From Nostoc sp. PCC 7120 = FACHB-418 (GTDB taxonomy: Bacteria; Cyanobacteriota; Cyanobacteriia; Cyanobacteriales; Nostocaceae): a stretch of 32,000 nucleotides of DNA. Each line of letters opens with the position of its first letter. The stretch's first letter is position 1. Shown one piece after another: positions 6,739 through 25,475 of this stretch. The notes beneath the pieces were generated by a model. That model made no database searches, was not told the origin of the DNA, and saw only the letters and a list, made by a program, of their open reading frames with translations. The translations under genes were made by a program, and so were the position numbers. The stretch is from NCBI RefSeq assembly GCF_000009705.1, contig NC_003272.1, positions 3,750,001-3,782,000 on the forward strand. The letters run 5' to 3'.

Positions 6739-7003
6739 GGTGCTTTAAGCTACTTGCTGAAAATAAACCCTGATCATCTGCGGAAAACCTCAGCATCAAA
6801 TTCTTCATTACAGGGTCATGTTTTGAGTTTTCCCATAGTCAAGACTTCTCTAACAACTTGTTAAATGCTATTATTTTGTTCGGAAAACTGAGCTTAGTCA
6901 TTTCCGATTGCTAGCGATGGGTAGGTGATCGCTTCACCTAACGAGATGCTATCATGACAAAAGGAAACTCTGTATCAACAGTTTCCTAAATGAATAAATA
7001 TCT

Positions 7004-7090
7004 GGAGAGGTGTCCGAGTGGTTGATGGTGACGCACTCGAAATGCGTTAAGGATGCAAGTCCTTCGGGGGTTCAAATCCCCCCTTCTCCG
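7004..7090 (+). tRNA. tRNA-Ser (anticodon CGA), class II with long variable arm, CCA not encoded
   Basis: Manual fold. Acceptor GGAGAGG / CTTCTCC (one G-U). Anticodon stem ACGCA/TGCGT with loop CTCGAAA (anticodon CGA). Variable arm AGGA-TGCAAG-TCCT. T-arm GGGGG-TTCAAAT-CCCCC. Confidence 0.9.
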
Positions 7091-7130
7091 TTTTTTCCTT
7101 ACACAGCAAGCCTTTTAACTTAATTACTGA

Positions 7131-7178
7131 TTGGTTGAATTAGTTGAATTGGTTGAACAAATGGTTGAATTGGTTGAA
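7131..7178 (+). repeat. five (G/A)GTTGAA iterons just downstream of the tRNA (candidate arm-type integrase sites)
   Basis: GGTTGAA at 7133, 7151, 7163 and 7172, plus AGTTGAA at 7142, mostly within TTGGTTGAA. Confidence 0.6.
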
Positions 7179-7534: not shown

Positions 7535-8518
7535 ATGTATATAAAAATAATAAAATCCACAATTTATATAGTTAATTTAACTATAAAATCCAAATATTCA
7601 TTATTGTATGTAATTTTGTTTTCTTGTTGTATATCCTTACTGCTAATATTAATTCATAAAAATTTCAATAGTGAAAAAGATATTTTTTGGAAACTATTAG
7701 GATTAACTTCCTTTATTTCAGGAGTTTTAGGGTTTTTAATAGATATATTGCTATACTTCAATAGTCAAAATAAACTTAAACGCAAAGTCAAGTTAGTACG
7801 GACAAAACAAGAAAAAACAATATCAGAGCATCAAATAATCTGGAACTCAAAAGGTGGGAATATAGAGCAAAATATAGCAAGAGATTTTATTGGAAGAGAT
7901 GCAGTAACTAATAATAATAAAAAAATCACTATTAAAAATAGAGAAGTAGAAGTTAACCCTAACAATATTATTCAAACATTTGATGATTTTAGAGACATTT
8001 TAGCGCAAAGTATAATTCAAAGCTCTGATGCGCTAGAAGCAATACGTGAGTTTGCACAGGAATTAACTGAGCAATTACGCAATCAACCAGAAGTAAAATC
8101 ATCTTTTGGTGTAGATAAAAATATTAGTATAAATGGATTATTGAAAGAAGTTTTTATAGAGTTATTAACTAAAAACTATAACCAAATAAATGAAAAAGAT
8201 GAAAACGGTTTAATTGTTCATTCTAATAAAATTGAAGGAATGAATATATCTAAGACTTCAAATTTTATAGAGTACTTTAAATACTGGGGACACAATAATT
8301 ATGATATAATATATAAAACTTATACTATTCAATTATTTCAAGAAGAAGGTAAACTATGGCATTATAGAATCAAAAGAAGTGATTCATCTTTTTTAGAAAA
8401 AACTAATGGTAAACCACGTTTACGTTCAAGTGATATATACACTGCAATTGGTAAAGCAATTAGAGAGATAGAAAGAGAAATAACTAAAACCTGGAAAAAT
8501 AATTCTGAGCCAATTTGA
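7535..8518 (+). CDS. island cargo: hypothetical membrane-anchored protein (327 aa)
   Basis: ORF track. Two N-terminal hydrophobic helices (LLYVILFSCCISLLLILI, LLGLTSFISGVLGFLIDILLYF). Then the motif KGGNIEQNIARDFIGRD, a helical region and an unrecognised C-terminal domain. Very AT-rich codon usage. Confidence 0.6.
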   Translation: MYIKIIKSTIYIVNLTIKSKYSLLYVILFSCCISLLLILIHKNFNSEKDIFWKLLGLTSFISGVLGFLIDILLYFNSQNKLKRKVKLVRTKQEKTISEHQIIWNSKGGNIEQNIARDFIGRDAVTNNNKKITIKNREVEVNPNNIIQTFDDFRDILAQSIIQSSDALEAIREFAQELTEQLRNQPEVKSSFGVDKNISINGLLKEVFIELLTKNYNQINEKDENGLIVHSNKIEGMNISKTSNFIEYFKYWGHNNYDIIYKTYTIQLFQEEGKLWHYRIKRSDSSFLEKTNGKPRLRSSDIYTAIGKAIREIEREITKTWKNNSEPI

Positions 8519-8744
8519 TTATTTATTAGTTAACAAATATCATTATTTTATATCTTTAATTTATTCAAATATCACTAAATAATAGTAGATTTTGTTAAAT
8601 CTTGTAATTATATATGTTTTTTAACATTAGTAACAATTTCCAGCATTTACTTATAAAATATATATTTTTAGTGAAAACTTACATAAAAGTTACCTGCATA
8701 TAATTACAATGTAGATAATAATCTTAATTATCAGGAGCTAAAAA

Positions 8745-9104
8745 ATGGCAGGTAGTTTTAATATTAATACTGGCGGTGGTCAATTTAATCAAAATATTGG
8801 ACGTGATTTGATCCAAGGTGATTACTATGCGGCAGCACAGCCCCAAAGCCTTGCTGAAACTGCTGCTGAAATTCAACAGTTACTAAAACAATTAGAGCAA
8901 ACATACCCGACTACAACTAGAGCAGAACAAAGGAGAGTAGCTACAGAAGCTATAAATCAAATTGAAAGTAATCCTGCATTTAAAGAGCGAATAATTAAAG
9001 CTGTCCAGTATGGTAGTTTAGCAGCTTTTGAAAAAGCTATTGATAATCCGCTTGGAGCATTCATCACTGAAGCAATCAAAGGTTGGCAAGAATTTGAAAG
9101 CTAA
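8745..9104 (+). CDS. island cargo: hypothetical soluble protein (119 aa) related to the central part of the 327-aa protein
   Basis: ORF track. AGGAG at 8732-8736 precedes ATG 8745. N-terminal TGGGQFNQNIGRDLIQGD, then AETAAEIQQLLKQLEQ and ...NQIESNPAFK, paralleling QNIARDFIGRD ... EQLRNQPEVK in ORF 7535-8518. Confidence 0.65.
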   Translation: MAGSFNINTGGGQFNQNIGRDLIQGDYYAAAQPQSLAETAAEIQQLLKQLEQTYPTTTRAEQRRVATEAINQIESNPAFKERIIKAVQYGSLAAFEKAIDNPLGAFITEAIKGWQEFES

Positions 9105-9194: not shown

Positions 9195-10412
9195 TTATTT
9201 GATTACATCTGGTAAATTAATTCTCTCAATATCTAACTTGAGATAGTGTTCTTTAATTATTTGTTCGCTGTTACCAACTAACTCAGCTAACTTATGTATC
9301 GGGTAATCATTATTAGCGTGATAACTAATCATTGTGTGCCTTAGTTGGTAGGGTACACGATATTTGATACCCATATTCTCTAATAGCAACTTCCACACTC
9401 TATAAAATACATTATGGTTTATTGGTTTACCTTGGATATTTTTAAAAACATATCCTTTTCTATGTGGAATATCGTTTAATAGCTCCATTAGCTCAGGATT
9501 AATAGGAAAGTATCTATGTGATACCGTTTTAGTACCTTGTTTTTTAATTATTAGTCCTCCTCTATTCATTTCTGCTTCACAAAATTTAATCCGCTTTTTC
9601 TGCAAGTCTACATTCTCCCACTTCAAAGCAATTGCCTCTGATGGTCTACATCCTGTTAACCAGCAAAAGTAAACATATTTGTAATATTGATAATGCCTAC
9701 CTTGCCTGCGGCTGTAAGTTTCATTTTTCAAAGCTTCTAGGATTCTATAAACTTCATCAACTGAAAAAATATCAATGTCGTCTTCTTCATTTACTACGCT
9801 ACATTTTTTTTCAGTTTTAATGTTAATGCTTTCGAGAGCATCCCGGTATTCAATCCCCCACTTACGCGGGATATTCCCTTGTTTACTATTCCAGTCAATA
9901 GCGGCTACTATCAACATAAATCGAGACTTACTGGTTTTCTTTGTTCGGCTAGTATTGTTAAATATCCACTCTATTAACTGTTGTTTATCTTCTAATTTAT
10001 GAAAAGGACAACTGTTTAATAATCGTCTTATTAGTGCAATGTGACTTGTTATATATGTTTCTGTCCAAGTACCCAATGCTACATGAAATTTAACATAGTT
10101 ATCCCATAACACAATTAAGTCATCTTTCTCTACTAACCTGACGCTTCCTGTCTTCTTAGCCTTAAACTTTGCTTGTTCACTCTTGACCATATCTTTGAGT
10201 GAATCTATTTCTATCAGTTCCCCTAGCGCGATTAATCGGCTTATCTCCTCATCTACCATCACGGCTAGGTTTAAGGCTGTAAGCTTATCCCCTCCTAATC
10301 CAATAGTTTTTCTCCCTAACTTACTGCTTAAGCGTAACTGGTACATTTCACCGTACTGAGTTTTCATTGTCATTACGCTTAAGTGTTTGTAATCGCTTCT
10401 TGACGCTACCAT
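9195..10412 (-). CDS. tyrosine-type site-specific integrase (405 aa)
   Basis: Catalytic-domain signatures: TGCRPSEAIALKWENVDL (box I Arg), YQLRHTMISYHAN (HxxR), and LVGNSEQIIKEHYLK (catalytic Tyr region). Confidence 0.9.
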   Translation of the reverse strand: MVASRSDYKHLSVMTMKTQYGEMYQLRLSSKLGRKTIGLGGDKLTALNLAVMVDEEISRLIALGELIEIDSLKDMVKSEQAKFKAKKTGSVRLVEKDDLIVLWDNYVKFHVALGTWTETYITSHIALIRRLLNSCPFHKLEDKQQLIEWIFNNTSRTKKTSKSRFMLIVAAIDWNSKQGNIPRKWGIEYRDALESINIKTEKKCSVVNEEDDIDIFSVDEVYRILEALKNETYSRRQGRHYQYYKYVYFCWLTGCRPSEAIALKWENVDLQKKRIKFCEAEMNRGGLIIKKQGTKTVSHRYFPINPELMELLNDIPHRKGYVFKNIQGKPINHNVFYRVWKLLLENMGIKYRVPYQLRHTMISYHANNDYPIHKLAELVGNSEQIIKEHYLKLDIERINLPDVIK

Positions 10413-10456
10413 TTTTTACCTCTCAGGGTAGATGAACTGATAGCATTTTAATTCAA

Positions 10457-10477
10457 TTGGTTGAATAATTGGTTGAA
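10457..10477 (+). repeat. two TTGGTTGAA iterons next to the integrase promoter and right island end
   Basis: TTGGTTGAA at 10457-10465 and 10469-10477, in the same orientation as the 7131-7178 set. Confidence 0.55.
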
Positions 10478-10541: not shown

Positions 10542-10603
10542 AGTGGACGCACTCAAAATGCGTTTTATAGAAACCTAACGGGGGTTCAAATCCCCCCTCC
10601 GTC
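10542..10603 (+). repeat. diverged duplicate of the tRNA-Ser 3' half (putative attR), not a functional tRNA
   Basis: GACGCACTCaAAATGCGTT differs by 1 nt from tRNA positions 7029-7047. GGGGGTTCAAATCCCCC (10580-10596) is identical to the T-arm. The variable arm and 3' acceptor strand differ, and there is no 5' half. Confidence 0.7.
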
Positions 10604-10607
10604 TTTT

Positions 10608-10988
10608 TTACATCATTCTCAATAAGTCAATCACCTCAGTTAGATGATTCTTAGCCTTGTACAGCGCCAGTAGTCTCTCTTGCTGGTATCTATTGGGGTA
10701 ATCCATCCGCCTACCTTCAAAACTCAGTCGGAGTAACGCTGATTGTTCACAGGTAGGTGTTGCCATCTCGTCTAGGATTTGTCCCATTGTCTCAAGACCA
10801 AAGAATGTAGGAGGTTTTAGCCCCTTTCCATCCTCTAATTGTTGGAGTGCTAAAGCCGGGAACGCCATTAAGGTAGTGATATAGCTAGCCTTCTGTCCTC
10901 CTGTTCCCGTTGGTTTTAAGCCATACCGTTTCACCAGTAGATTTAATTGGGGGATAGTCAACAGTTCTAATTCAGCACGACTAAACAT
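10608..10988 (-). CDS. hypothetical protein (126 aa), possible N-terminal SAP/HeH-like motif
   Basis: ORF track. LTIPQLNLLVKRYGLKPTG resembles a helix-extended-helix DNA/RNA-binding motif. This is a weak call from memory. Confidence 0.45.
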   Translation of the reverse strand: MFSRAELELLTIPQLNLLVKRYGLKPTGTGGQKASYITTLMAFPALALQQLEDGKGLKPPTFFGLETMGQILDEMATPTCEQSALLRLSFEGRRMDYPNRYQQERLLALYKAKNHLTEVIDLLRMM

Positions 10989-11375: not shown

Positions 11376-12197
11376 TTAACTACTCGTATTTCGCTCAAGC
11401 CAAGCAACTAAATCAGATACATTTGAAAAACTTAAAAATTCTTCTCCCAAGGCTTCTAACTCTTCAGTAGATAATATTTTGATACGCTCAACTATTGATA
11501 AATCTATCTCACCAAAGCGCCGATTTAACTGTCGATTTAAAAAGCGAAAAGCTTCTTTCTGCTCACCCTTCTGCTCACCCTTTTGCAAAATATCCTGATA
11601 AATAACTGATTCCTGCATAATATCCTCGCTTAATAACTGACGAATCAAACCCTTCTCAAACCGCAAACCAGCTAATATCTCGGTGTAGGCTGCTGTATTT
11701 TGCCTTGTCTCTCTATCTGAAATTCTTAAATCTCTTGGAGAATCAGTTTGACACAAAGGTGCTAATGGTAACAATGCCAAATTACCCAAAAATAAGCTGG
11801 AATCTTGCTCCCACATTCTGACTGCACGATAGCGATGTCTAGTTGTCTCATTCACATACTCTTCAGTAAAAGCAATTTCATCATCTGTCTCCTGCAAAAA
11901 TATTACCACCTGTACAATTCGACACTTATACTGACGTTTTAATCTCACAGAATAATCCAGCATTCGGAAAGGAATCGCGGGATTAGACTGTGTTAAAGTC
12001 TGAAATTCAATATGCAAAATCAAATTGCCAGTTTGTAAAAAAATCACAGAATCTGCGCGAATAGGCTCTAAACTTAACTCAGTTTTTAAAACCTTAACAT
12101 TGGTAGATTCTTCACCAATTAACCATCGGATAAAATCTTTTGGATATTTCTCTGCAAGCGCCTTACAAACATTATCAAAACTCACAATAAGAACCAA
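11376..12197 (-). CDS. Rpn-family recombination-promoting nuclease / putative transposase (PD-(D/E)XK N-domain, DUF4351-like C-domain)
   Basis: SFDNVCKALAEKYPKDFIRWL...EPIRADSVIFLQTGNLILHIEFQT is the typical cyanobacterial Rpn/YhgA-like N-terminus. The C-terminus ...QKGEQKGEQKEAFRFLNRQLNRRFGEI...LSTEELEALGEEFL resembles DUF4351. GTG 12185 (MSFDN...) is an alternative start. Confidence 0.75.
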   Translation of the reverse strand: MVLIVSFDNVCKALAEKYPKDFIRWLIGEESTNVKVLKTELSLEPIRADSVIFLQTGNLILHIEFQTLTQSNPAIPFRMLDYSVRLKRQYKCRIVQVVIFLQETDDEIAFTEEYVNETTRHRYRAVRMWEQDSSLFLGNLALLPLAPLCQTDSPRDLRISDRETRQNTAAYTEILAGLRFEKGLIRQLLSEDIMQESVIYQDILQKGEQKGEQKEAFRFLNRQLNRRFGEIDLSIVERIKILSTEELEALGEEFLSFSNVSDLVAWLERNTSS

Positions 12198-14871: not shown

Positions 14872-16602
14872 TTACCTCTTCCCCAACTTTTCCCGCAACG
14901 CCTCCGGTAGATTCAGCGCTGTCTCCAAACCTCGCACGCCTTCCCATTGCTGAATTTCTCCCCAGGTCATCTCTTCTAGGTTGGCTTCACTTATGTCTGT
15001 ATCGTCGAGAATGGCATAACTGAGGTTGGCGCTACTGAGGTCTGCACCATTCAAAATTGCGCCACTCAAGTTACTACCACTCAGGTTGGCACTGTTGAGG
15101 TTGGCAAAGCTGAAGTCAGTACCCAAGAGTATGGCATCGCTGAGGTCTGCGCCTGTGAGGTCGGCTTCGCTGAGAATCCCGCCACTCAAATCGGCATCAT
15201 TGAGAACTACGCCAGTTAAATCTACGCCACTGAGGTCTGCACCTAAAAACATAGCGCCGTTGAGTCTGGCGTAGTTGAGTTTAGCACCGTTGAGTTTGGC
15301 ATAACTGAGGTCAGCTGCTTCCAGAATGGCATCACTTAAGTTAGTACTAAAAAGAATGGTATCGCTGAGGTTAGTACCGTTGAGGGTGGCGTGTGTGAGG
15401 TCTGCACCACTCAAGTCTGCACGACAAAGGTCGGCGCGACTGAGGTCGGCGTGATTGAGGTTGGCATCACTGAGGTTAGCACCAAATAAGATGGCGTTGC
15501 TGAGGTTGGCGCGACGGAGTTCAGCATCTCTGAGGTTGACACCACTGAGGTTGGCGTGGCTAAATTCGCCATCGTTGAGGATGGAACTACTCAGGTCAGC
15601 ACGACTGAGGTCGGCACGTTGCAAGTTAGCACCGCTTAGGTTTGCACCCGTAAGGTTGGCGCTGCTGAGGTCGGCGCTACTCAAGTTGGCACCACTGAGA
15701 TTAACACTGCTGAGGTTGGCATCACCAAAGTCTGCACCTGTGAGGTTAGCGTCTTGGAAGTTTGCGCCTGTAAGGTTGGCATCACCAAGGTATGCGCCAC
15801 TGAGGTTAGCACCACTAAAGTTAACTCCTGTCAAGTTGGCATTTCCCAAGTATGCACCTTGAAAGTTACCACCTCGGAGAAATTCCCCTACGATATTACT
15901 AAAGTTGCCAATTTCTATGGCATCGCTATAATTAATTACCCGCAGTAGTTGGGAGGTAAAAAAGCTGTCTGTATCTGGTGGGGAAGAAGGATAAAAGTTG
16001 ATTTGTTGCCGCAGTTCTTCTTGCTGTTGGGCGTAGCGGTGTAATTCTAGAAGTAAAATTAAGACATTAAGCCCAGCGTAAATATCAATCTGCCTCAGTC
16101 CCATGGCTTGATTCTGTGCTGCCATCTCCATCAATTTTCGCTGAGGTAAGTTCTCGCTTGGTGGCGCATCAATAAATTCTCCTCGACACCAACGTTGATA
16201 AAAATCTTCTAGACGGTGAAATAGCAACCCTGGGCGAAATTGTGCTTCCAGGATAAGCAATTCTATGACTTTTTCGACTATTTCTGAGTTTAATGCACCA
16301 TTACCGAGTAAATCATAAATCTCTTGTTGGAGTTGGCTATTGCTAGTGGAAAATTTCCCCTTACCATCCTCTCTTGTCCATGCCTCTAAACTGATTTGTA
16401 ATCTTTCACATAAAATTTCTTTCTGTAAATTAACTTGAGAAAAGTTTACATCTTTGGCTGGTTTTTGTTGGTGTTTTCCCAGAGGTAAAAATGAGCGACT
16501 ACCTACATACTTTGTTGTAGGCCTATCTGTTGACCTTGTACCCCGAACATAATTCTGTAAGAGTTTCCAAACATGAGGTAGTTCTGACATTTTTTTATCC
16601 AT
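14872..16602 (-). CDS. pentapeptide-repeat protein with about 265-aa unrecognised N-terminal domain
   Basis: Roughly 60 consecutive A(D/N)LxG-type pentapeptides (ANLTGVNFSGANLSGAYLGDANL...). The track start 16692 gives an implausible hydrophobic leader. Met 16602 (MDKKMSEL) or Met 16590 is more likely. Confidence 0.85.
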   Translation of the reverse strand: MDKKMSELPHVWKLLQNYVRGTRSTDRPTTKYVGSRSFLPLGKHQQKPAKDVNFSQVNLQKEILCERLQISLEAWTREDGKGKFSTSNSQLQQEIYDLLGNGALNSEIVEKVIELLILEAQFRPGLLFHRLEDFYQRWCRGEFIDAPPSENLPQRKLMEMAAQNQAMGLRQIDIYAGLNVLILLLELHRYAQQQEELRQQINFYPSSPPDTDSFFTSQLLRVINYSDAIEIGNFSNIVGEFLRGGNFQGAYLGNANLTGVNFSGANLSGAYLGDANLTGANFQDANLTGADFGDANLSSVNLSGANLSSADLSSANLTGANLSGANLQRADLSRADLSSSILNDGEFSHANLSGVNLRDAELRRANLSNAILFGANLSDANLNHADLSRADLCRADLSGADLTHATLNGTNLSDTILFSTNLSDAILEAADLSYAKLNGAKLNYARLNGAMFLGADLSGVDLTGVVLNDADLSGGILSEADLTGADLSDAILLGTDFSFANLNSANLSGSNLSGAILNGADLSSANLSYAILDDTDISEANLEEMTWGEIQQWEGVRGLETALNLPEALREKLGKR

Positions 16603-17070
16603 TAATAATAAATTGCCAAAGTAGAAATATATAGATAAATTCAATGCTTCGGTGTTGTGAAAGCATGAAAATTTAGTATAAAATAAATCCAAGTATTTAA
16701 AATTAAAATTACATCAACAACACCTGACATAAGGATTTTCTCGGTAAAAAATTTAATCTTTAAGAGGAAGATCAGGCTATAGGTTCCCAAGAATTAGCGA
16801 AATTGAGCTATTTTAAGGAAATAATCTATTTTTAGGCGCTAACTTTACTAAAACAGATGTAAAAATAATACGTACTGTTTGCTACAAAGACGATTGTTAG
16901 GAAAAATACTACAACAAAACAGCACAACAAATCTAAAAAATGCTGTTCCTCACCAAACTGAGAAGCTAGTAACTAGCCATCAGGTAATTTTGGCTCTTTT
17001 CCGGTGAACAGACAACTGACGCTCATAGCGCATGAGAAATAATTAACGATAGTTATCAGGAATAAACTAG

Positions 17071-23444: not shown

Positions 23445-25475
23445 ATGCTTTGCTGTTTGAATCCTAATTGCTCCATGCCTCAAAACCCCGATGGCCAAAT
23501 GTATTGCCAACGCTGCAATACACAATTGATACCCTTATTAAGGGGGCATTATCGCATTATCAAGGTGCTATCGGATGAAGGTGGATTTGGGAGAACCTAT
23601 CTATCAGAAGATATAGATAAATTGAACGAATTGTGTGTAGTTAAACAATTTGCACCTAAAGTTCAAGAACATTCAGCTATGAAAAAAGCCGTTGAGTTAT
23701 TTAAACAAGAAGCTCAACGCTTGCAACATTTAGGAGAACATCACCAGATTCCTACCCTATTAGCTTACTTCGAGCAAGATAATTATCTATTTTTGGTGCA
23801 ACAGTTTATTAATGGAAACAATCTATTACAAGAATTACGTCAAGGGGTAGTTTACAACGAAAGTACAATTGTCGAATTTCTCTTAGATTTACTCCCTGTA
23901 TTGAAATATATTCATGAGCGTGGAGTAATTCATCGAGATATTAAGCCACAGAACATCATCCGCCGTCAGAGTGATGGGGGACTAGTACTAATTGATTTTG
24001 GTGCTGCCAAGCAGCTAAAAGCGACAATGCAGACTCAATTGGGAACCACTATTGGCTCACTTGGTTACACCCCAATTGAACAAATGCAGTATGGCAAAGC
24101 TTACCCAGCCAGTGATTTATTTAGTCTGGGTGCGACTTGCTTTCATCTGTTGACGGGGATTAACCCATCTAATTTGTTTGTCGAACAAGGCTACAGTTGG
24201 GTTGAATCCTGGCAGCAATATTGGAACACTTCAAATTCAGATAGGAACGAAGGTGAATATCTAGTTAAGGTTTTGAACAAGCTGTTAGAAACGGATATTC
24301 AAAGGCGTTATCAATCAGCTGATGAAGTGATGAATGATTTGATCAAGCAGCGATCGCTACTCTCAAGATTAAAAACTACAATACCAAAATCTGCTATCTT
24401 TTCAAGATCTTGGTCAGCATCAACCTCATTAACCGCGTCTACAACCAAAAAACAAGCTTGGAAATTGCTCAATGGTAGGCTCAAACAACAACTCCTGATA
24501 AATACCATGAGTGCGCTGTTAGGTTTAGTGGGTGTTGGGCATTTACAGTCTCTCCCCCAGCTAATTACTAAATTTTCCGAAATTTCTACTCAACCTTACA
24601 CTCTCAAGGGTCATGCCAGCGATGTAAATTCCGTTGCTTTTTCTCCTAATGGAGAATTCCTAGCTAGTGGCAGTGATGACAAAACTATTAAAGTTTGGAA
24701 TTTAAAAAATAAACAGAAAATCCATACTCTTCCAGGTCATTCTGGATGGGTTTGGGCTATTGCTTTCTCCCCAGATGGTAAAACTCTTGCTAGTACAGGT
24801 GCTGATAAGACCATCAAATTGTGGAATCTGGCAACTGGCAAAGAAATTCGCCATCTGAAAGGGCATTCTCAGGGAGTGGCTAGCGTTGCCTTTAGTCCAG
24901 ATGGCAAGACGCTTGCTAGTGGCAGCTTAGATAAGACAATCAAACTGTGGAACCCAGCAACAGGCAAAGAAATCCGCACGTTGCAAGAACATTCCAGTGG
25001 TGTTGCTAATGTAGCCTTCAGTCCCGATGGCAAAACTCTTGCTAGTGGCAGTTGGGATAAAACAATTAAATTATGGAATCTCACAACCAGCAAGGTAATT
25101 CATACCTTGAAGGGACATTCCGATTTGGTGATGTCTGTAGCCTTCAATTCAGATAGTCAAACTCTTGCCAGTGGCAGTAAGGACAAAACGATTAAATTGT
25201 GGAACCTGTCAACAGGAAAGACCATCCGCACCCTAAGAGGGCATTCTGACAAGGTGAATTCTGTTGCCTACGTGCCAAGAGATAGCACAGTTCTTGCCAG
25301 TGGTAGCAATGACAACACAATTAAATTATGGAATTTAACGACAGGAGAGATAATTCGCACATTAAAGCGCGATTCTGGATACATTTATTCCATAGTCATT
25401 AGTCCCGATGGGCGTAATCTTGCTAGTGGCGGTAGTGCTGAGAATATTATCAAAATTTGGCCGATGAGTTGGTGA
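23445..25475 (+). CDS. Ser/Thr protein kinase with N-terminal 4-Cys zinc ribbon and C-terminal 7x WD40 propeller
   Basis: CLNPNC...CQRC. Kinase motifs VVKQF, HRDIKPQNI, DFG and GYTPIEQ. Seven repeats of GHS..V.SVAFSPDGKTLASGS.DKTIKLWN. Confidence 0.9.
   Translation: MLCCLNPNCSMPQNPDGQMYCQRCNTQLIPLLRGHYRIIKVLSDEGGFGRTYLSEDIDKLNELCVVKQFAPKVQEHSAMKKAVELFKQEAQRLQHLGEHHQIPTLLAYFEQDNYLFLVQQFINGNNLLQELRQGVVYNESTIVEFLLDLLPVLKYIHERGVIHRDIKPQNIIRRQSDGGLVLIDFGAAKQLKATMQTQLGTTIGSLGYTPIEQMQYGKAYPASDLFSLGATCFHLLTGINPSNLFVEQGYSWVESWQQYWNTSNSDRNEGEYLVKVLNKLLETDIQRRYQSADEVMNDLIKQRSLLSRLKTTIPKSAIFSRSWSASTSLTASTTKKQAWKLLNGRLKQQLLINTMSALLGLVGVGHLQSLPQLITKFSEISTQPYTLKGHASDVNSVAFSPNGEFLASGSDDKTIKVWNLKNKQKIHTLPGHSGWVWAIAFSPDGKTLASTGADKTIKLWNLATGKEIRHLKGHSQGVASVAFSPDGKTLASGSLDKTIKLWNPATGKEIRTLQEHSSGVANVAFSPDGKTLASGSWDKTIKLWNLTTSKVIHTLKGHSDLVMSVAFNSDSQTLASGSKDKTIKLWNLSTGKTIRTLRGHSDKVNSVAYVPRDSTVLASGSNDNTIKLWNLTTGEIIRTLKRDSGYIYSIVISPDGRNLASGGSAENIIKIWPMSW

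What the first reader, a model, noticed from the sequence alone, without database searches (positions are those of the whole stretch)
7535..9104. Island cargo: membrane-anchored 327-aa protein plus a 119-aa soluble paralogue of its central region, with no nameable domain
These are the only non-integrase genes in the tRNA-Ser island. Seen in sequence: both carry a G/N/Q-rich motif. ORF327 has WNSKGGNIEQNIARDFIGRD and ORF119 has INTGGGQFNQNIGRDLIQGD, with 10 of 20 positions identical. Further on, both have a helical segment ending in a similar box (EQLRNQPEVK vs NQIESNPAFK), at comparable distance once a 12-residue insertion is allowed. ORF327 adds two N-terminal transmembrane helices and a C-terminal region of about 130 aa that I cannot assign. 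Inference: a long membrane form paired with a short soluble form sharing an interaction module, carried on an integrase island. That context suits accessory conflict or phage-defence cargo, or a sensor/decoy or toxin/immunity pair. From memory, the ORF119 architecture recurs in small cyanobacterial hypothetical proteins and at the N-termini of larger repeat proteins, with no known function. The similarity was found post hoc by eye and is short.
Basis: partly seen in the sequence, partly recalled or inferred. Interest (0 to 1): 0.75.

Follow-up and report, generated by a model that had tools for sequence, protein, structure and literature searches.

The report
Tag-sharing membrane/soluble gene pair
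Two neighbouring genes on a small mobile island in a Nostoc genome encode a membrane protein and a small soluble protein that share a short glycine/asparagine-rich tag; in other cyanobacteria the same tag sits on immune-type (NLR-like) ATPases and on caspase-like proteases encoded by adjacent genes, so the pair is probably an uncharacterised tag-coupled conflict module, though no function has been tested.

Summary
ORF327 (7535-8518) and ORF119 (8745-9104) are the only cargo of a 3.5-kb tyrosine-integrase island at tRNA-Ser(CGA). Neither matches Pfam, NCBIfam, PHROGs, PADLOC, PDB or BFVD.

The similarity is real. BLASTP gives 10/19 identities.

The pair is a conserved cassette. It is adjacent and co-directional in nine genomes or plasmids of Nostocales, in at least five different contexts, one beside a type I restriction-modification system.

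The shared about 22-residue G/N/Y-rich tag (family consensus RNINTGGGNYNERIQGDYIQGNYY) is predicted disordered. In related loci it recurs in neighbouring genes:
- at the N-terminus of NACHT ATPases;
- after CHAT proteases and after membrane-spanning pentapeptide-repeat proteins;
- at the C-terminus of an unknown protein.

The tag variant follows the ORF327 partner, not the subtype of ORF119's helical domain.

Best reading (confidence 0.5): a membrane-anchored effector and a soluble partner coupled through a homotypic tag. This resembles NLR-associated amyloid-signalling motif pairs and effector-associated adaptor domains.

The tag matches no published BASS family that I could test. It is not terminal in either protein. 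The island carries no NLR and no protease. Amyloid behaviour and a defence role are untested.

The parts
7003..7091 (+). tRNA-Ser(CGA), integration target and left island end (attL). The identical 20-nt core CGGGGGTTCAAATCCCCCCT lies at 7065-7084.
   Evidence: ARAGORN; Rfam tRNA, 50 bits; repeat and alignment
7132..7178 (.). Three TGGTTGAAT-type direct repeats just inside the left end. A matching pair lies at the right end. These may be integrase arm-type binding sites (inference).
   Evidence: the repeat finder D1 and D4
7535..8518 (+). ORF327, a membrane-anchored protein of a rare Nostocales family. GC is 25.5%.
   Evidence: (38 representatives among 1.84 billion)
7598..7759 (+). ORF327 residues 22-75: a two-helix transmembrane hairpin with predicted N-in/C-in topology.
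   Evidence: Hydropathy and charge; AF2 helices
7835..7900 (+). ORF327 residues 101-122: G/N-rich tag IIWNSKGGNIEQNIARDFIGRD, a diverged copy of the family tag, in a region predicted disordered.
7958..8104 (+). ORF327 residues 142-190: two helices ending in the EQLRNQPEVK box, homologous to ORF119 helices 1-2.
   Evidence: hhalign 93.1%, E 3.1e-7; AF2
8267..8503 (+). ORF327 residues 245-323: C-terminal domain of four beta strands plus a helix, found only in this family. Function unknown.
   Evidence: AF2, pLDDT about 75; conservation; no structural match
8701..8744 (+). Conserved TACAAT box and AGGAG ribosome-binding site upstream of ORF119, conserved in six loci. This implies ORF119 has its own promoter (inference).
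   Evidence: Alignment A5; blastn
8745..9104 (+). ORF119, a soluble protein belonging to a large cyanobacterial family (more than 1161 clusters).
8757..8828 (+). ORF119 residues 5-28: G/N-rich tag FNINTGGGQFNQNIGRDLIQGDYY, predicted disordered.
   Evidence: pLDDT below 50 for residues 1-32; motif HMM E 5.6e-9
8841..9101 (+). ORF119 residues 33-119: a five-helix bundle. In relatives this is the 'constant' C-terminal module fused to CHAT, pentapeptide-repeat, multi-TM and unknown domains.
   Evidence: AF2, pLDDT about 85; architectures
9195..10412 (-). Tyrosine integrase of the island.
   Evidence: PF00589, E 4.7e-18; phrog_1, E 5.7e-38
10448..10477 (.). Right-end copies of the TTGGTTGAA repeats.
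   Evidence: the repeat finder D4; sequence
10546..10609 (+). attR: a degenerate copy of the tRNA-Ser anticodon arm through its 3' end. The identical core lies at 10579-10598.

Best explanation
ORF327 and ORF119 are a co-inherited two-gene cassette. Their products are probably coupled through a shared N-proximal module: a tag of about 22 residues rich in glycine, asparagine and tyrosine, intrinsically disordered, followed by two helices.

ORF327 is anchored in the cytoplasmic membrane by a two-helix hairpin. It presents the tag and a family-specific C-terminal domain to the cytoplasm. ORF119 is a soluble protein made of the tag plus a helical bundle.

The tag belongs to a large family in filamentous cyanobacteria. 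That family marks the N-termini of NACHT (NLR-like) ATPases and the junctions of effector-type domains (CHAT protease, membrane-spanning pentapeptide proteins) encoded by adjacent genes.

By analogy (inference), the tag mediates homotypic, probably templated beta-type, assembly that passes a signal from one tagged protein to another. In this minimal pair the soluble partner would recruit, nucleate or restrain the membrane protein, which would be the executing component, for example by perturbing the membrane in an abortive-infection-like response.

The cassette reached this genome as cargo of a tyrosine-integrase island inserted in tRNA-Ser(CGA).

Shown: homology of the module, adjacency, tag sharing among neighbouring genes, topology, and island structure. 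Inferred: physical coupling, direction of signalling, membrane damage, and a defence role.
For: (1) Homology. BLASTP gives 10/19 identities, E 7e-4. hhalign gives 81% and 93.1%, E 3.1e-7 over 76 columns. A tag HMM built only from ORF119-family proteins hits 27 of 52 ORF327-family proteins at E 1e-5 to 1e-13.

(2) Linkage. An ORF119-family gene lies immediately next to the ORF327-family gene: 194-243 bp downstream on the same strand in the six pairs measured (window, L001, L005, L011, L012, L014), likewise downstream in L019 and L020, and on either side in the two pairs of L007. That is 10 of 13 ORF327-family genes whose neighbour can be read. 12 of 13 have a tag-bearing neighbour.

(3) The tag is a mobile unit shared by neighbours:
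- NACHT N-termini in L008, L015 and L021;
- the N-terminus of an 857-aa HEAT protein in L017;
- CHAT-tag-helical fusions (P0087, P0145);
- TM-pentapeptide-tag-helical fusions (L021, L008);
- the C-terminus of a 344-aa protein (L008);
- three consecutive tagged genes in L014 and four in L007.

(4) Partner matching. ORF327-linked ORF119 proteins of the window's clade carry FNQNIGRD where the family has NYNERIEGD, paralleling ORF327's EQNIARD. Their tags are 79-100% identical, while their helical domains belong to two subtypes only 39-43% identical. L014 has the opposite combination. Permutation of 10 pairs gives P = 0.002.

(5) The tag is disordered in the monomer models. It is G 20%, N 19%, Y 15%, I 10%, with alternating hydrophobic residues and Gly turns. 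Some ORF327 relatives have two copies.

(6) Contexts:
- integrase island;
- type I restriction-modification system directly downstream in L005;
- plasmids;
- integrases in L008, L010 and L021.

(7) Precedent. BASS motif pairs (Dyrka 2020, doi 10.1101/2020.01.06.895854) and the Bab/Agp abortive-infection system of E. coli (doi 10.1101/2024.11.07.622273) work by this logic.
Against: - The window's own ORF327 tag has diverged so far that the family tag HMM does not detect it (E 6.9).
- The island has no NLR-type ATPase, no protease and no recognisable sensor.
- No PADLOC, Pfam or structural hit ties either protein to defence.
- In described amyloid-signalling pairs the motif is terminal. Here it is internal in ORF327, and in ORF119 it is followed by a folded domain.
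- The co-variation rests essentially on one split between two clades. Within the second clade it is not significant (P = 0.13), so shared ancestry could explain part of it.
- The AF2 model of ORF327 is poor (mean pLDDT 56).
- Some copies are decayed: the ORF119 homologue is cut by a stop codon in L019, and ORF327 is truncated in L010.
- Nothing has been tested experimentally.
Confidence: 0.5

Rival explanations
1. The coupling element is the helical part, not the G/N tag. On this view the shared two-helix segment and the ORF119 bundle act as a Death-like or EAD-type homotypic adaptor domain, and the tag is only a flexible linker in front of it.
For: The homology extends through two helices and the NPxxK box. 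The ORF119 helical bundle is a constant module fused to many different N-terminal domains. That is the architectural pattern that defines EADs (Kaur 2020, PMC7159879).
Against: NACHT proteins, the L017 HEAT protein, and the L014 233-aa and L008 344-aa proteins share only the tag, without the helices. Among ORF327 partners the tag is conserved while the helical domain has been swapped between subtypes. No Pfam EAD or Death-like model matches, even at E up to 1. Foldseek finds no significant Death-fold match.
Confidence: 0.2
2. The tag is a protease-processing site or regulated linker. CHAT/orthocaspase-type proteases would cut at the conserved R/D-containing tag. Cutting would release the helical module, or free ORF327's cytoplasmic domain from the membrane, as in proteolytically licensed defence effectors.
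For: The tag sits directly after CHAT domains in fusion proteins. In ORF327 it sits between the membrane anchor and the cytoplasmic domains. It is disordered and therefore accessible. Protease-gated effectors are widespread (Evans 2025, doi 10.1101/2025.11.14.688446).
Against: There is no protease gene in the island or in most pair loci. The tag at the extreme N-terminus of NACHT proteins and of ORF119 would release only a few residues. Matching of tag variants between partners is not expected for a shared cleavage site.
Confidence: 0.12
3. The pair is a toxin/immunity-like system. ORF327 is an intrinsically toxic membrane protein. ORF119 is a decoy that caps its tag and keeps it inactive, and the cassette stabilises the island by addiction.
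For: The architecture is a membrane protein plus a small soluble partner. ORF119 appears to have its own conserved promoter. The location is mobile. The two genes differ sharply in GC, 25-28% against 38-50%, consistent with a resident-type partner recruited to a foreign gene.
Against: There is no similarity to known toxin-antitoxin families. ORF327 survives next to a truncated ORF119 homologue in L019. The same tag on NACHT and CHAT proteins points to signalling rather than simple neutralisation.
Confidence: 0.13
4. These are ordinary accessory or housekeeping proteins (for example related to cell division, as the 'ZapA' labels suggest), and the similarity is only compositional.
For: Some family members are named ZapA, CHASE3 or AlaX in public records. 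The tag is of low complexity.
Against: The ZapA Pfam model matches only 3 of 37 family members, at E 0.001 or weaker, and does not match ORF119. The profile-profile match is collinear over 76 columns. Adjacency recurs in nine replicons and several contexts. The ORF327 family is rare and patchy, with 38 representatives among 1.84 billion.
Confidence: 0.05

Closest known systems
NLR-associated bacterial amyloid signalling sequences (BASS1-10; Dyrka et al. 2020) and the E. coli Bab/Agp abortive-infection pair (BASS11; Ibarlosa et al. 2024)
   Same: A short G/N/Q-rich motif of about 20-25 residues is shared by products of adjacent, mostly co-directional genes. It is restricted to filamentous or multicellular bacteria. 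It occurs at the N-terminus of NACHT proteins and next to CHAT and other effector domains. Some effector-side proteins carry two copies. Partner motifs resemble each other. Bab/Agp shows that such a pair can work without an NLR and can sit in mobile defence islands.
   Different: The tag does not match a BASS8 HMM or exemplars of BASS3-5, 7-10. It is not C-terminal on the effector side: a helical domain follows it. The window pair has no NLR, TPR or nuclease sensor and no Bell-type domain. ORF327 and ORF119 share helices as well as the motif. Amyloid formation is untested.
Fungal HET-S / NWD2 prion-like signalling
   Same: The logic would be the same: a sensor-side copy of a motif templates an effector-side copy, and that activates a membrane-targeting domain. 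Some ORF327 relatives have two pseudo-repeats on the effector side.
   Different: There is no sequence relationship. ORF327 is already an integral membrane protein rather than a soluble HeLo-type domain that inserts on activation.
Effector-associated domains and the 'EAD coupling principle' (Kaur, Burroughs, Iyer, Aravind 2020/2021)
   Same: A small non-enzymatic module is present on a core NTPase and again on stand-alone or effector-fused proteins encoded next door. Adjacent copies are the most alike. It is enriched in multicellular cyanobacteria. Associated domains include CHAT, pentapeptide repeats and STAND NTPases.
   Different: No Pfam EAD or bacterial Death-like model matches. The element most widely shared is a disordered tag of about 22 residues, not a folded helical domain. 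The vWA-MoxR or GTPase cores are absent from the window.
EACC1-caspase membrane-associated two-gene system
   Same: It is a two-gene conflict system with a small membrane-associated component and a variable partner, found in multicellular bacteria.
   Different: EACC1 is a single-TM alpha+beta protein paired with a caspase-fused gene and activated by cleavage. ORF327 and ORF119 have no EACC1 match and no protease partner.
tRNA-integrated genomic islands with tyrosine integrase
   Same: The island has an integrase, lies at the 3' part of a tRNA gene, is flanked by a direct repeat of that part, has low GC and carries accessory cargo.
   Different: It is very small (about 3.5 kb), with only two cargo genes. 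The same cargo pair also occurs without an integrase elsewhere, including beside tRNA-Ser(CGA) in the inverted orientation.

Membership tests
BASS-type amyloid signalling motif pair | A short motif (about 20-40 aa) is shared by the products of adjacent or closely linked genes. | tested here: met
   BLASTP 10/19. These are the only two pattern hits in the six frames of the window. The same arrangement occurs in nine replicons.
BASS-type amyloid signalling motif pair | One copy lies at the N-terminus of an NLR-like (NACHT/NB-ARC) protein. | tested here: not met
   The window has no NACHT or NB-ARC gene. At family level the feature is met: tagged NACHT N-termini occur in L008, L015 and L021.
BASS-type amyloid signalling motif pair | The other copy lies at the C-terminal end of an effector protein. 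| tested here: not met
   In ORF327 the tag is internal (residues 101-122 of 327). In ORF119 it is N-terminal and followed by a helical bundle. Only the L008 344-aa protein has a C-terminal tag.
BASS-type amyloid signalling motif pair | Sequence match to a published BASS family profile. | tested here: not met
   A BASS8 HMM built from the paper's supplementary table gives a best E of 0.4, mixed with noise. The tag HMM against exemplars of BASS3, 4, 5, 7, 8, 9 and 10 gives E 0.38 or worse in every case. BASS1, 2, 6 and 11 could not be tested because no sequences were in hand.
BASS-type amyloid signalling motif pair | The motif forms amyloid fibrils or behaves as a prion-forming, cross-seeding element. 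| not testable with these tools
   Only indirect evidence is available: the tag is disordered in monomer models, and its composition and alternating pattern are G/N/Y/I-rich.
Effector-associated domain (EAD) adaptor | A small non-enzymatic module is fused to a core NTPase and, in further copies, to effectors encoded by adjacent genes. | tested here: met
   This is met at family level for the tag, and for the helical module fused to CHAT, pentapeptide and TM domains.
Effector-associated domain (EAD) adaptor | [quoted passage not shown] | tested here: inconclusive
   Permutation gives P = 0.002 overall but P = 0.13 within one clade. The tag tracks the ORF327 partner rather than the helical subtype.
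Effector-associated domain (EAD) adaptor | Match to a described EAD or bacterial Death-like family model. | tested here: not met
   No EAD or Death-like Pfam hit at E up to 1 for ORF119 or ORF327, nor among the 37 family members. Foldseek hits to Death domains have E above 4.
EACC1-caspase system | A single-TM alpha+beta EACC1 protein is encoded upstream of a caspase-fused gene. | tested here: not met
   No EACC1 Pfam hit. ORF327 has two TM helices. There is no protease in the island.
Known anti-phage defence systems (PADLOC-DB v2) | Significant match to a model of a known or candidate defence protein. | tested here: not met
   The best match is PDC-M14B, E 0.001, 16.6 bits, for ORF119, seen in only 5 of 37 family members. 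ORF327 has nothing better than E 0.058.
tRNA-targeting tyrosine-integrase island | An integrase gene, insertion at the tRNA 3' part, and a flanking direct repeat of that part. | tested here: met
   PF00589, E 4.7e-18. tRNA-Ser at 7003-7091. Partial tRNA copy at 10546-10609 with a 20-nt identical core. GC drop.
ZapA (the name given to some ORF119 relatives) | Match to the ZapA family model above threshold. | tested here: not met
   ORF119 has no hit. Only 3 of 37 relatives hit, with best E 0.0011, below any curated cut-off.

The most novel reading that the evidence does not exclude
The RNINTGGGNYNE-x-I-x-GDYIQGNYY tag is a previously undescribed family of prokaryotic amyloid or prion-like signalling motifs, widespread in heterocystous cyanobacteria. 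It was missed by earlier screens because a helical 'cap' domain follows it instead of the protein ending there. On this reading the ORF327/ORF119 cassette is a minimal, NLR-less, horizontally mobile version in which a soluble tagged protein switches on a tagged integral-membrane executioner.
Probability: 0.3. Interest if true: 0.75.

Novelty: new variant of a known kind. Interest (0 to 1): 0.55.

Why it matters
If the tag really couples proteins by templated assembly, it would add a large cyanobacterial family (more than a thousand protein clusters) to the few known bacterial amyloid-signalling motifs. Members include NACHT, CHAT and membrane-spanning pentapeptide proteins.

It would also give a first functional handle on a very common 'hypothetical' helical module of Nostocales, and on some of their many pentapeptide-repeat proteins.

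The pair itself would be a compact two-gene system of about 1.6 kb. Tag-to-membrane-effector signalling could then be tested genetically without a giant NLR.

It also shows that such modules travel on minimal integrase islands and on plasmids.

Tried and rejected
- **Family libraries.** Pfam, NCBIfam, PHROGs and PADLOC scans of both proteins, and of 37 ORF119 relatives, gave only sub-threshold noise such as UPF0242, DUF445, SMODS, PDC-M14B and ZapA.
- **Structure.** PDB sequence searches with both family profiles found nothing better than E 0.15. Foldseek of both AF2 models against PDB, and of ORF119 against BFVD, gave no hit with E below 0.8. The ORF327 model is also too poor to rely on.
- **EACC1 idea.** Rejected after reading its definition, a single-TM alpha+beta protein partnered with a caspase.
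- **BASS8 membership.** I suspected it by eye from a shared YN..GRD pattern, but HMM tests in both directions rejected it.
- **Phage origin.** No match for ORF119 in 50,697 phage records. No ORF327 relative in IMG/VR (a first try with the broad alignment failed). Only one viral contig carries the helical module.
- **Other RNAs in the island.** Rfam finds only the tRNA.
- **Terminators and promoters.** The generic scan is no better than shuffled sequence.
- **A second att copy in the L001-type loci.** None found.
- **Two look-ups of exact proteins** (P0071, P0076) returned nothing.
- **Full-text search** for the tag or helix sequence strings found no paper.
Full report
**1. What is in the sequence**

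The window carries tRNA-Ser(cga) at 7003-7091. ORF327 lies at 7535-8518 on the plus strand and ORF119 at 8745-9104 on the plus strand. A 405-aa ORF lies at 9195-10412 on the minus strand and is a tyrosine integrase (PF00589, E 4.7e-18; phrog_1, E 5.7e-38).

A degenerate copy of the tRNA, from the anticodon arm to the 3' end, lies at 10546-10609. It shares an identical 20-nt core, CGGGGGTTCAAATCCCCCCT, at 7065-7084 and 10579-10598. This delimits an island of about 3.5 kb.

Island GC is 30% against 42% for the rest of the window. TTGGTTGAA-type repeats lie just inside both ends. No other non-overlapping ORF lies inside the island.

The flanking genes are ordinary chromosomal genes: proB, coaBC, a pentapeptide protein, a met-zincin, a kinase-WD40 protein and a hybrid histidine kinase. 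A 100%-identical protein is recorded from Nostoc sp. UBA8866.

**2. The similarity between the two proteins**

BLASTP aligns ORF327 104-122 with ORF119 8-26, 10/19 identical, E 7e-4. On its own this is marginal.

I built family alignments. The ORF327 family is rare: 16 close homologues and only 38 representatives among 1.84 billion clustered proteins, all 64-383 aa apart from one weak 638-aa hit to an unrelated repeat protein. The ORF119 family is large, with more than 1161 clusters at 90% identity, almost all cyanobacterial.

Profile-profile comparison gives:
- 81% probability, E 1.2e-5, with the close ORF327 family;
- 93.1% probability, E 3.1e-7, 76 columns, with a 32-member broad family.

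The second alignment pairs ORF327 101-190 with ORF119 5-82. It includes the EQLRNQPEVK and NQIESNPAFK boxes and an insertion of about 12 residues (a beta hairpin) in ORF327.

A tag HMM built only from ORF119-family proteins has the consensus RNINTGGGNYNERIQGDYIQGNYY. It hits 27 of 52 ORF327-family proteins at E 1e-5 to 1e-13, but not the window's own diverged copy (E 6.9). Among 483 window ORFs it hits only ORF119. The relationship is therefore real at family level. The window's ORF327 tag is a diverged variant.

**3. Anatomy**

ORF327 has two hydrophobic segments at about 22-44 and 53-75. The N-terminus is positive, and the stretch after the second segment is strongly positive (8 K/R against 2 D/E). 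This implies N-in/C-in topology, with everything downstream in the cytoplasm.

AF2 gives a mean pLDDT of 56 for ORF327. It places the tag in a disordered stretch (77-126). After it come a hairpin (129-140), helices (142-212), a disordered linker, and a four-strand-plus-helix domain (247-323) with pLDDT about 75.

In the ORF119 model, residues 1-32 are disordered (pLDDT below 50) and residues 33-119 form a five-helix bundle (pLDDT about 85).

No library or structure search names any of these domains. The 'ZapA' names on some relatives trace to sub-threshold coiled-coil-like hits.

**4. The pair is a cassette**

An ORF119-family gene lies directly next to the ORF327-family gene in all of these. 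It is 194-243 bp downstream on the same strand in the six pairs measured, likewise downstream in L019 and L020, and on either side in L007:
- the window;
- Nostoc sp. P9639 (L001/L004);
- N. desertorum CM1-VF14 (L005);
- two further Nostoc assemblies (L011, L012);
- a Fischerella assembly (L014);
- plasmid pn2 of Nostoc sp. UHCC 0926 (L019);
- plasmid3 of Fischerella sp. NIES-4106 (L020);
- Dulcicalothrix desertica PCC 7102, twice (L007).

Of 13 ORF327-family genes whose neighbour can be read, 10 have an ORF119-family neighbour and 12 have a tag-bearing neighbour.

A TACAAT box and an AGGAG site upstream of ORF119 are conserved across six loci.

The contexts differ:
- an integrase island at tRNA-Ser (the window);
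- beside tRNA-Ser(cga) but inverted, without an integrase, and separated from the tRNA by a fragment of the window's ORF126 (L011, L012; L001 lacks the fragment);
- directly upstream of a type I restriction-modification system (L005);
- on plasmids;
- beside integrase genes (L008, L010).

ORF327 homologues have 25-28% GC in every genome, while their ORF119 partners have 38-50%.

**5. The tag is a mobile unit that links neighbouring genes, including NLR-like ATPases**

ORF119-family proteins have the general form [variable N-terminal part]-[tag]-[helical bundle]. Of the 135 best-matching proteins, 108 have the tag a median of 5 residues before the bundle. This count is partly circular, because the HMM came from these same proteins.

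Variable N-terminal parts include:
- CHAT protease (11 of the 120 listed, e.g. P0087, P0145);
- a restriction-endonuclease-like fragment;
- TM segments;
- long membrane-spanning pentapeptide-repeat proteins.

In related loci the tag alone recurs on neighbours:
- the N-terminus of NACHT proteins directly downstream of CHAT-tag-helix (L015) or pentapeptide-tag-helix proteins (L021, L008);
- the N-terminus of an 857-aa HEAT-repeat protein downstream of a 120-aa family member (L017);
- the N-terminus of a 233-aa protein, giving three consecutive tagged genes (L014);
- the C-terminus of a 344-aa protein (L008);
- two proteins downstream of the ORF327 homologue of Rivularia (L009).

L007 has four tagged genes next to a P-loop NTPase gene.

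Across 263 kb of fetched loci the tag HMM finds 34 sites, clustered in adjacent genes.

**6. Partner matching**

In the window's clade, ORF327 carries GG-x-[IL]-EQNI-x-RDFI. Its partners carry GG-x-F-NQNIGRD-x-IQG in place of the family's GGNYNERIEGDYIQG. In the other clade, both partners carry the NYNE type. In L020, GGNYNENIGRD is identical in the two proteins.

Among ORF327-linked ORF119 proteins, the tags are 79-100% identical while the helical bundles fall into two subtypes only 39-43% identical. L014 combines the second helical subtype with the other tag type. The tag therefore follows the ORF327 partner, not the bundle.

Permutation of 10 pairs gives P = 0.002. That result is driven by the split between clades; within one clade P = 0.13. 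I treat this as supportive, not conclusive.

**7. Interpretation**

The signature is a short disordered G/N-rich tag shared by adjacent genes, present at NACHT N-termini and beside CHAT or membrane effector domains, and confined to filamentous cyanobacteria. This is the signature used to define NLR-associated amyloid signalling motifs (BASS).

It also matches the logic shown experimentally for the E. coli Bab/Agp abortive-infection pair. It fits the 'EAD coupling principle' of Kaur et al. as well.

My best explanation is a tag-coupled pair consisting of a membrane-anchored executing protein (ORF327) and a soluble partner (ORF119). It travels as island or plasmid cargo and is related to the NLR-type conflict networks of multicellular cyanobacteria.

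Shown: homology, linkage, tag sharing, topology and island structure. Inferred: physical coupling through the tag, a beta-type templated mechanism, membrane damage and a defence role.

**8. Membership and limits**

- The tag does not match BASS8, whose profile I rebuilt from the paper's table, or exemplars of BASS3-5, 7-10. BASS1, 2, 6 and 11 could not be tested.
- In this pair the tag is not terminal on the effector side.
- The island holds no NLR.
- No EAD, Death-like or EACC1 model matches.
- PADLOC gives no credible hit.

I therefore do not file the pair as a member of any described family. It works most like these systems and is best called a new variant of that kind.

The rivals remain open:
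- a helical adaptor rather than the tag as the coupling element;
- the tag as a protease-processing site;
- a toxin/decoy pair;
- a housekeeping function.

**9. Verdict**

The finding is a real, conserved and so far undescribed two-gene module with a plausible, testable mechanism. Its function is unproven, and the concept has precedents.

Noticed in passing
window 7132-7178 and 10448-10477: TTGGTTGAA(T/C) direct repeats lie just inside both island ends, three copies on the left and two on the right. They may be arm-type integrase or excisionase binding sites.
   Followed up: partly
window 7535-8518 vs 8745-9104; L001, L005, L011, L012, L014: ORF327 homologues have 25-28% GC in every genome, while the adjacent ORF119 homologues have 38-50%. 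The low GC belongs to the ORF327 gene itself, not to the island as a whole.
   Followed up: partly
window 10608-10988 (-); L011 7568-7675; L012 7468-7575: In other Nostoc genomes a fragment matching residues 91-126 of the window's ORF126 lies between the ORF119 homologue and tRNA-Ser(cga). There the pair sits beside the same tRNA but inverted and without an integrase. The tRNA-Ser(CGA) neighbourhood looks like a recurrent insertion hot spot.
   Followed up: partly
window 8701-8744: A TACAAT box and an AGGAG site upstream of ORF119 are conserved in six loci across Nostoc and Fischerella. This suggests ORF119 is transcribed from its own promoter.
   Followed up: partly
window 11376-12197 (-): A 273-aa protein with a C-terminal DUF4351 domain (E 8.5e-21) lies just outside the island.
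   Followed up: no
window 14872-16692 (-) and 23445-25475 (+): The window also encodes a 606-aa pentapeptide-repeat protein and a Ser/Thr-kinase-WD40 protein. Neither carries the tag.
   Followed up: partly
L007 962-7469 (Dulcicalothrix desertica PCC 7102): This is a dense cluster: a distant ORF327-family gene, an ORF119 homologue, a 375-aa fusion ending in tag plus helical bundle, a second ORF327 homologue, and then a P-loop NTPase of more than 640 aa. Four tagged genes lie in a row.
   Followed up: partly
L022 4834-6324 (IMG/VR viral contig): A 496-aa multi-pass membrane protein ends in the ORF119-type helical bundle, without a canonical tag. It is encoded between portal-like and terminase-like genes. 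This is the only viral hit for either family.
   Followed up: partly
L019 8134-8352 (Nostoc sp. UHCC 0926 plasmid pn2) and L010 7992-8486 (Calothrix sp. NIES-2100): These are decayed copies. The ORF119 homologue is cut by a stop codon after 72 residues. Elsewhere an ORF327 homologue is truncated at 164 aa where a 491-aa integrase gene abuts it.
   Followed up: no
L024 7130-8357 (Tolypothrix sp. PCC 7712 plasmid): A MoxR-family ATPase gene lies about 3 kb from a pentapeptide-tag-helix protein. This may link to the vWA-MoxR ternary systems.
   Followed up: no
public names of P0039, P0042, P0013, P0040: ORF119-family proteins are labelled 'cell division protein ZapA', 'CHASE3 domain sensor protein' or 'AlaX' in public records. 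For ZapA, the one label tested, the family model matches only 3 of 37 members and never better than E 0.001, so it looks like an over-annotation; CHASE3 and AlaX did not appear among the Pfam hits.
   Followed up: yes
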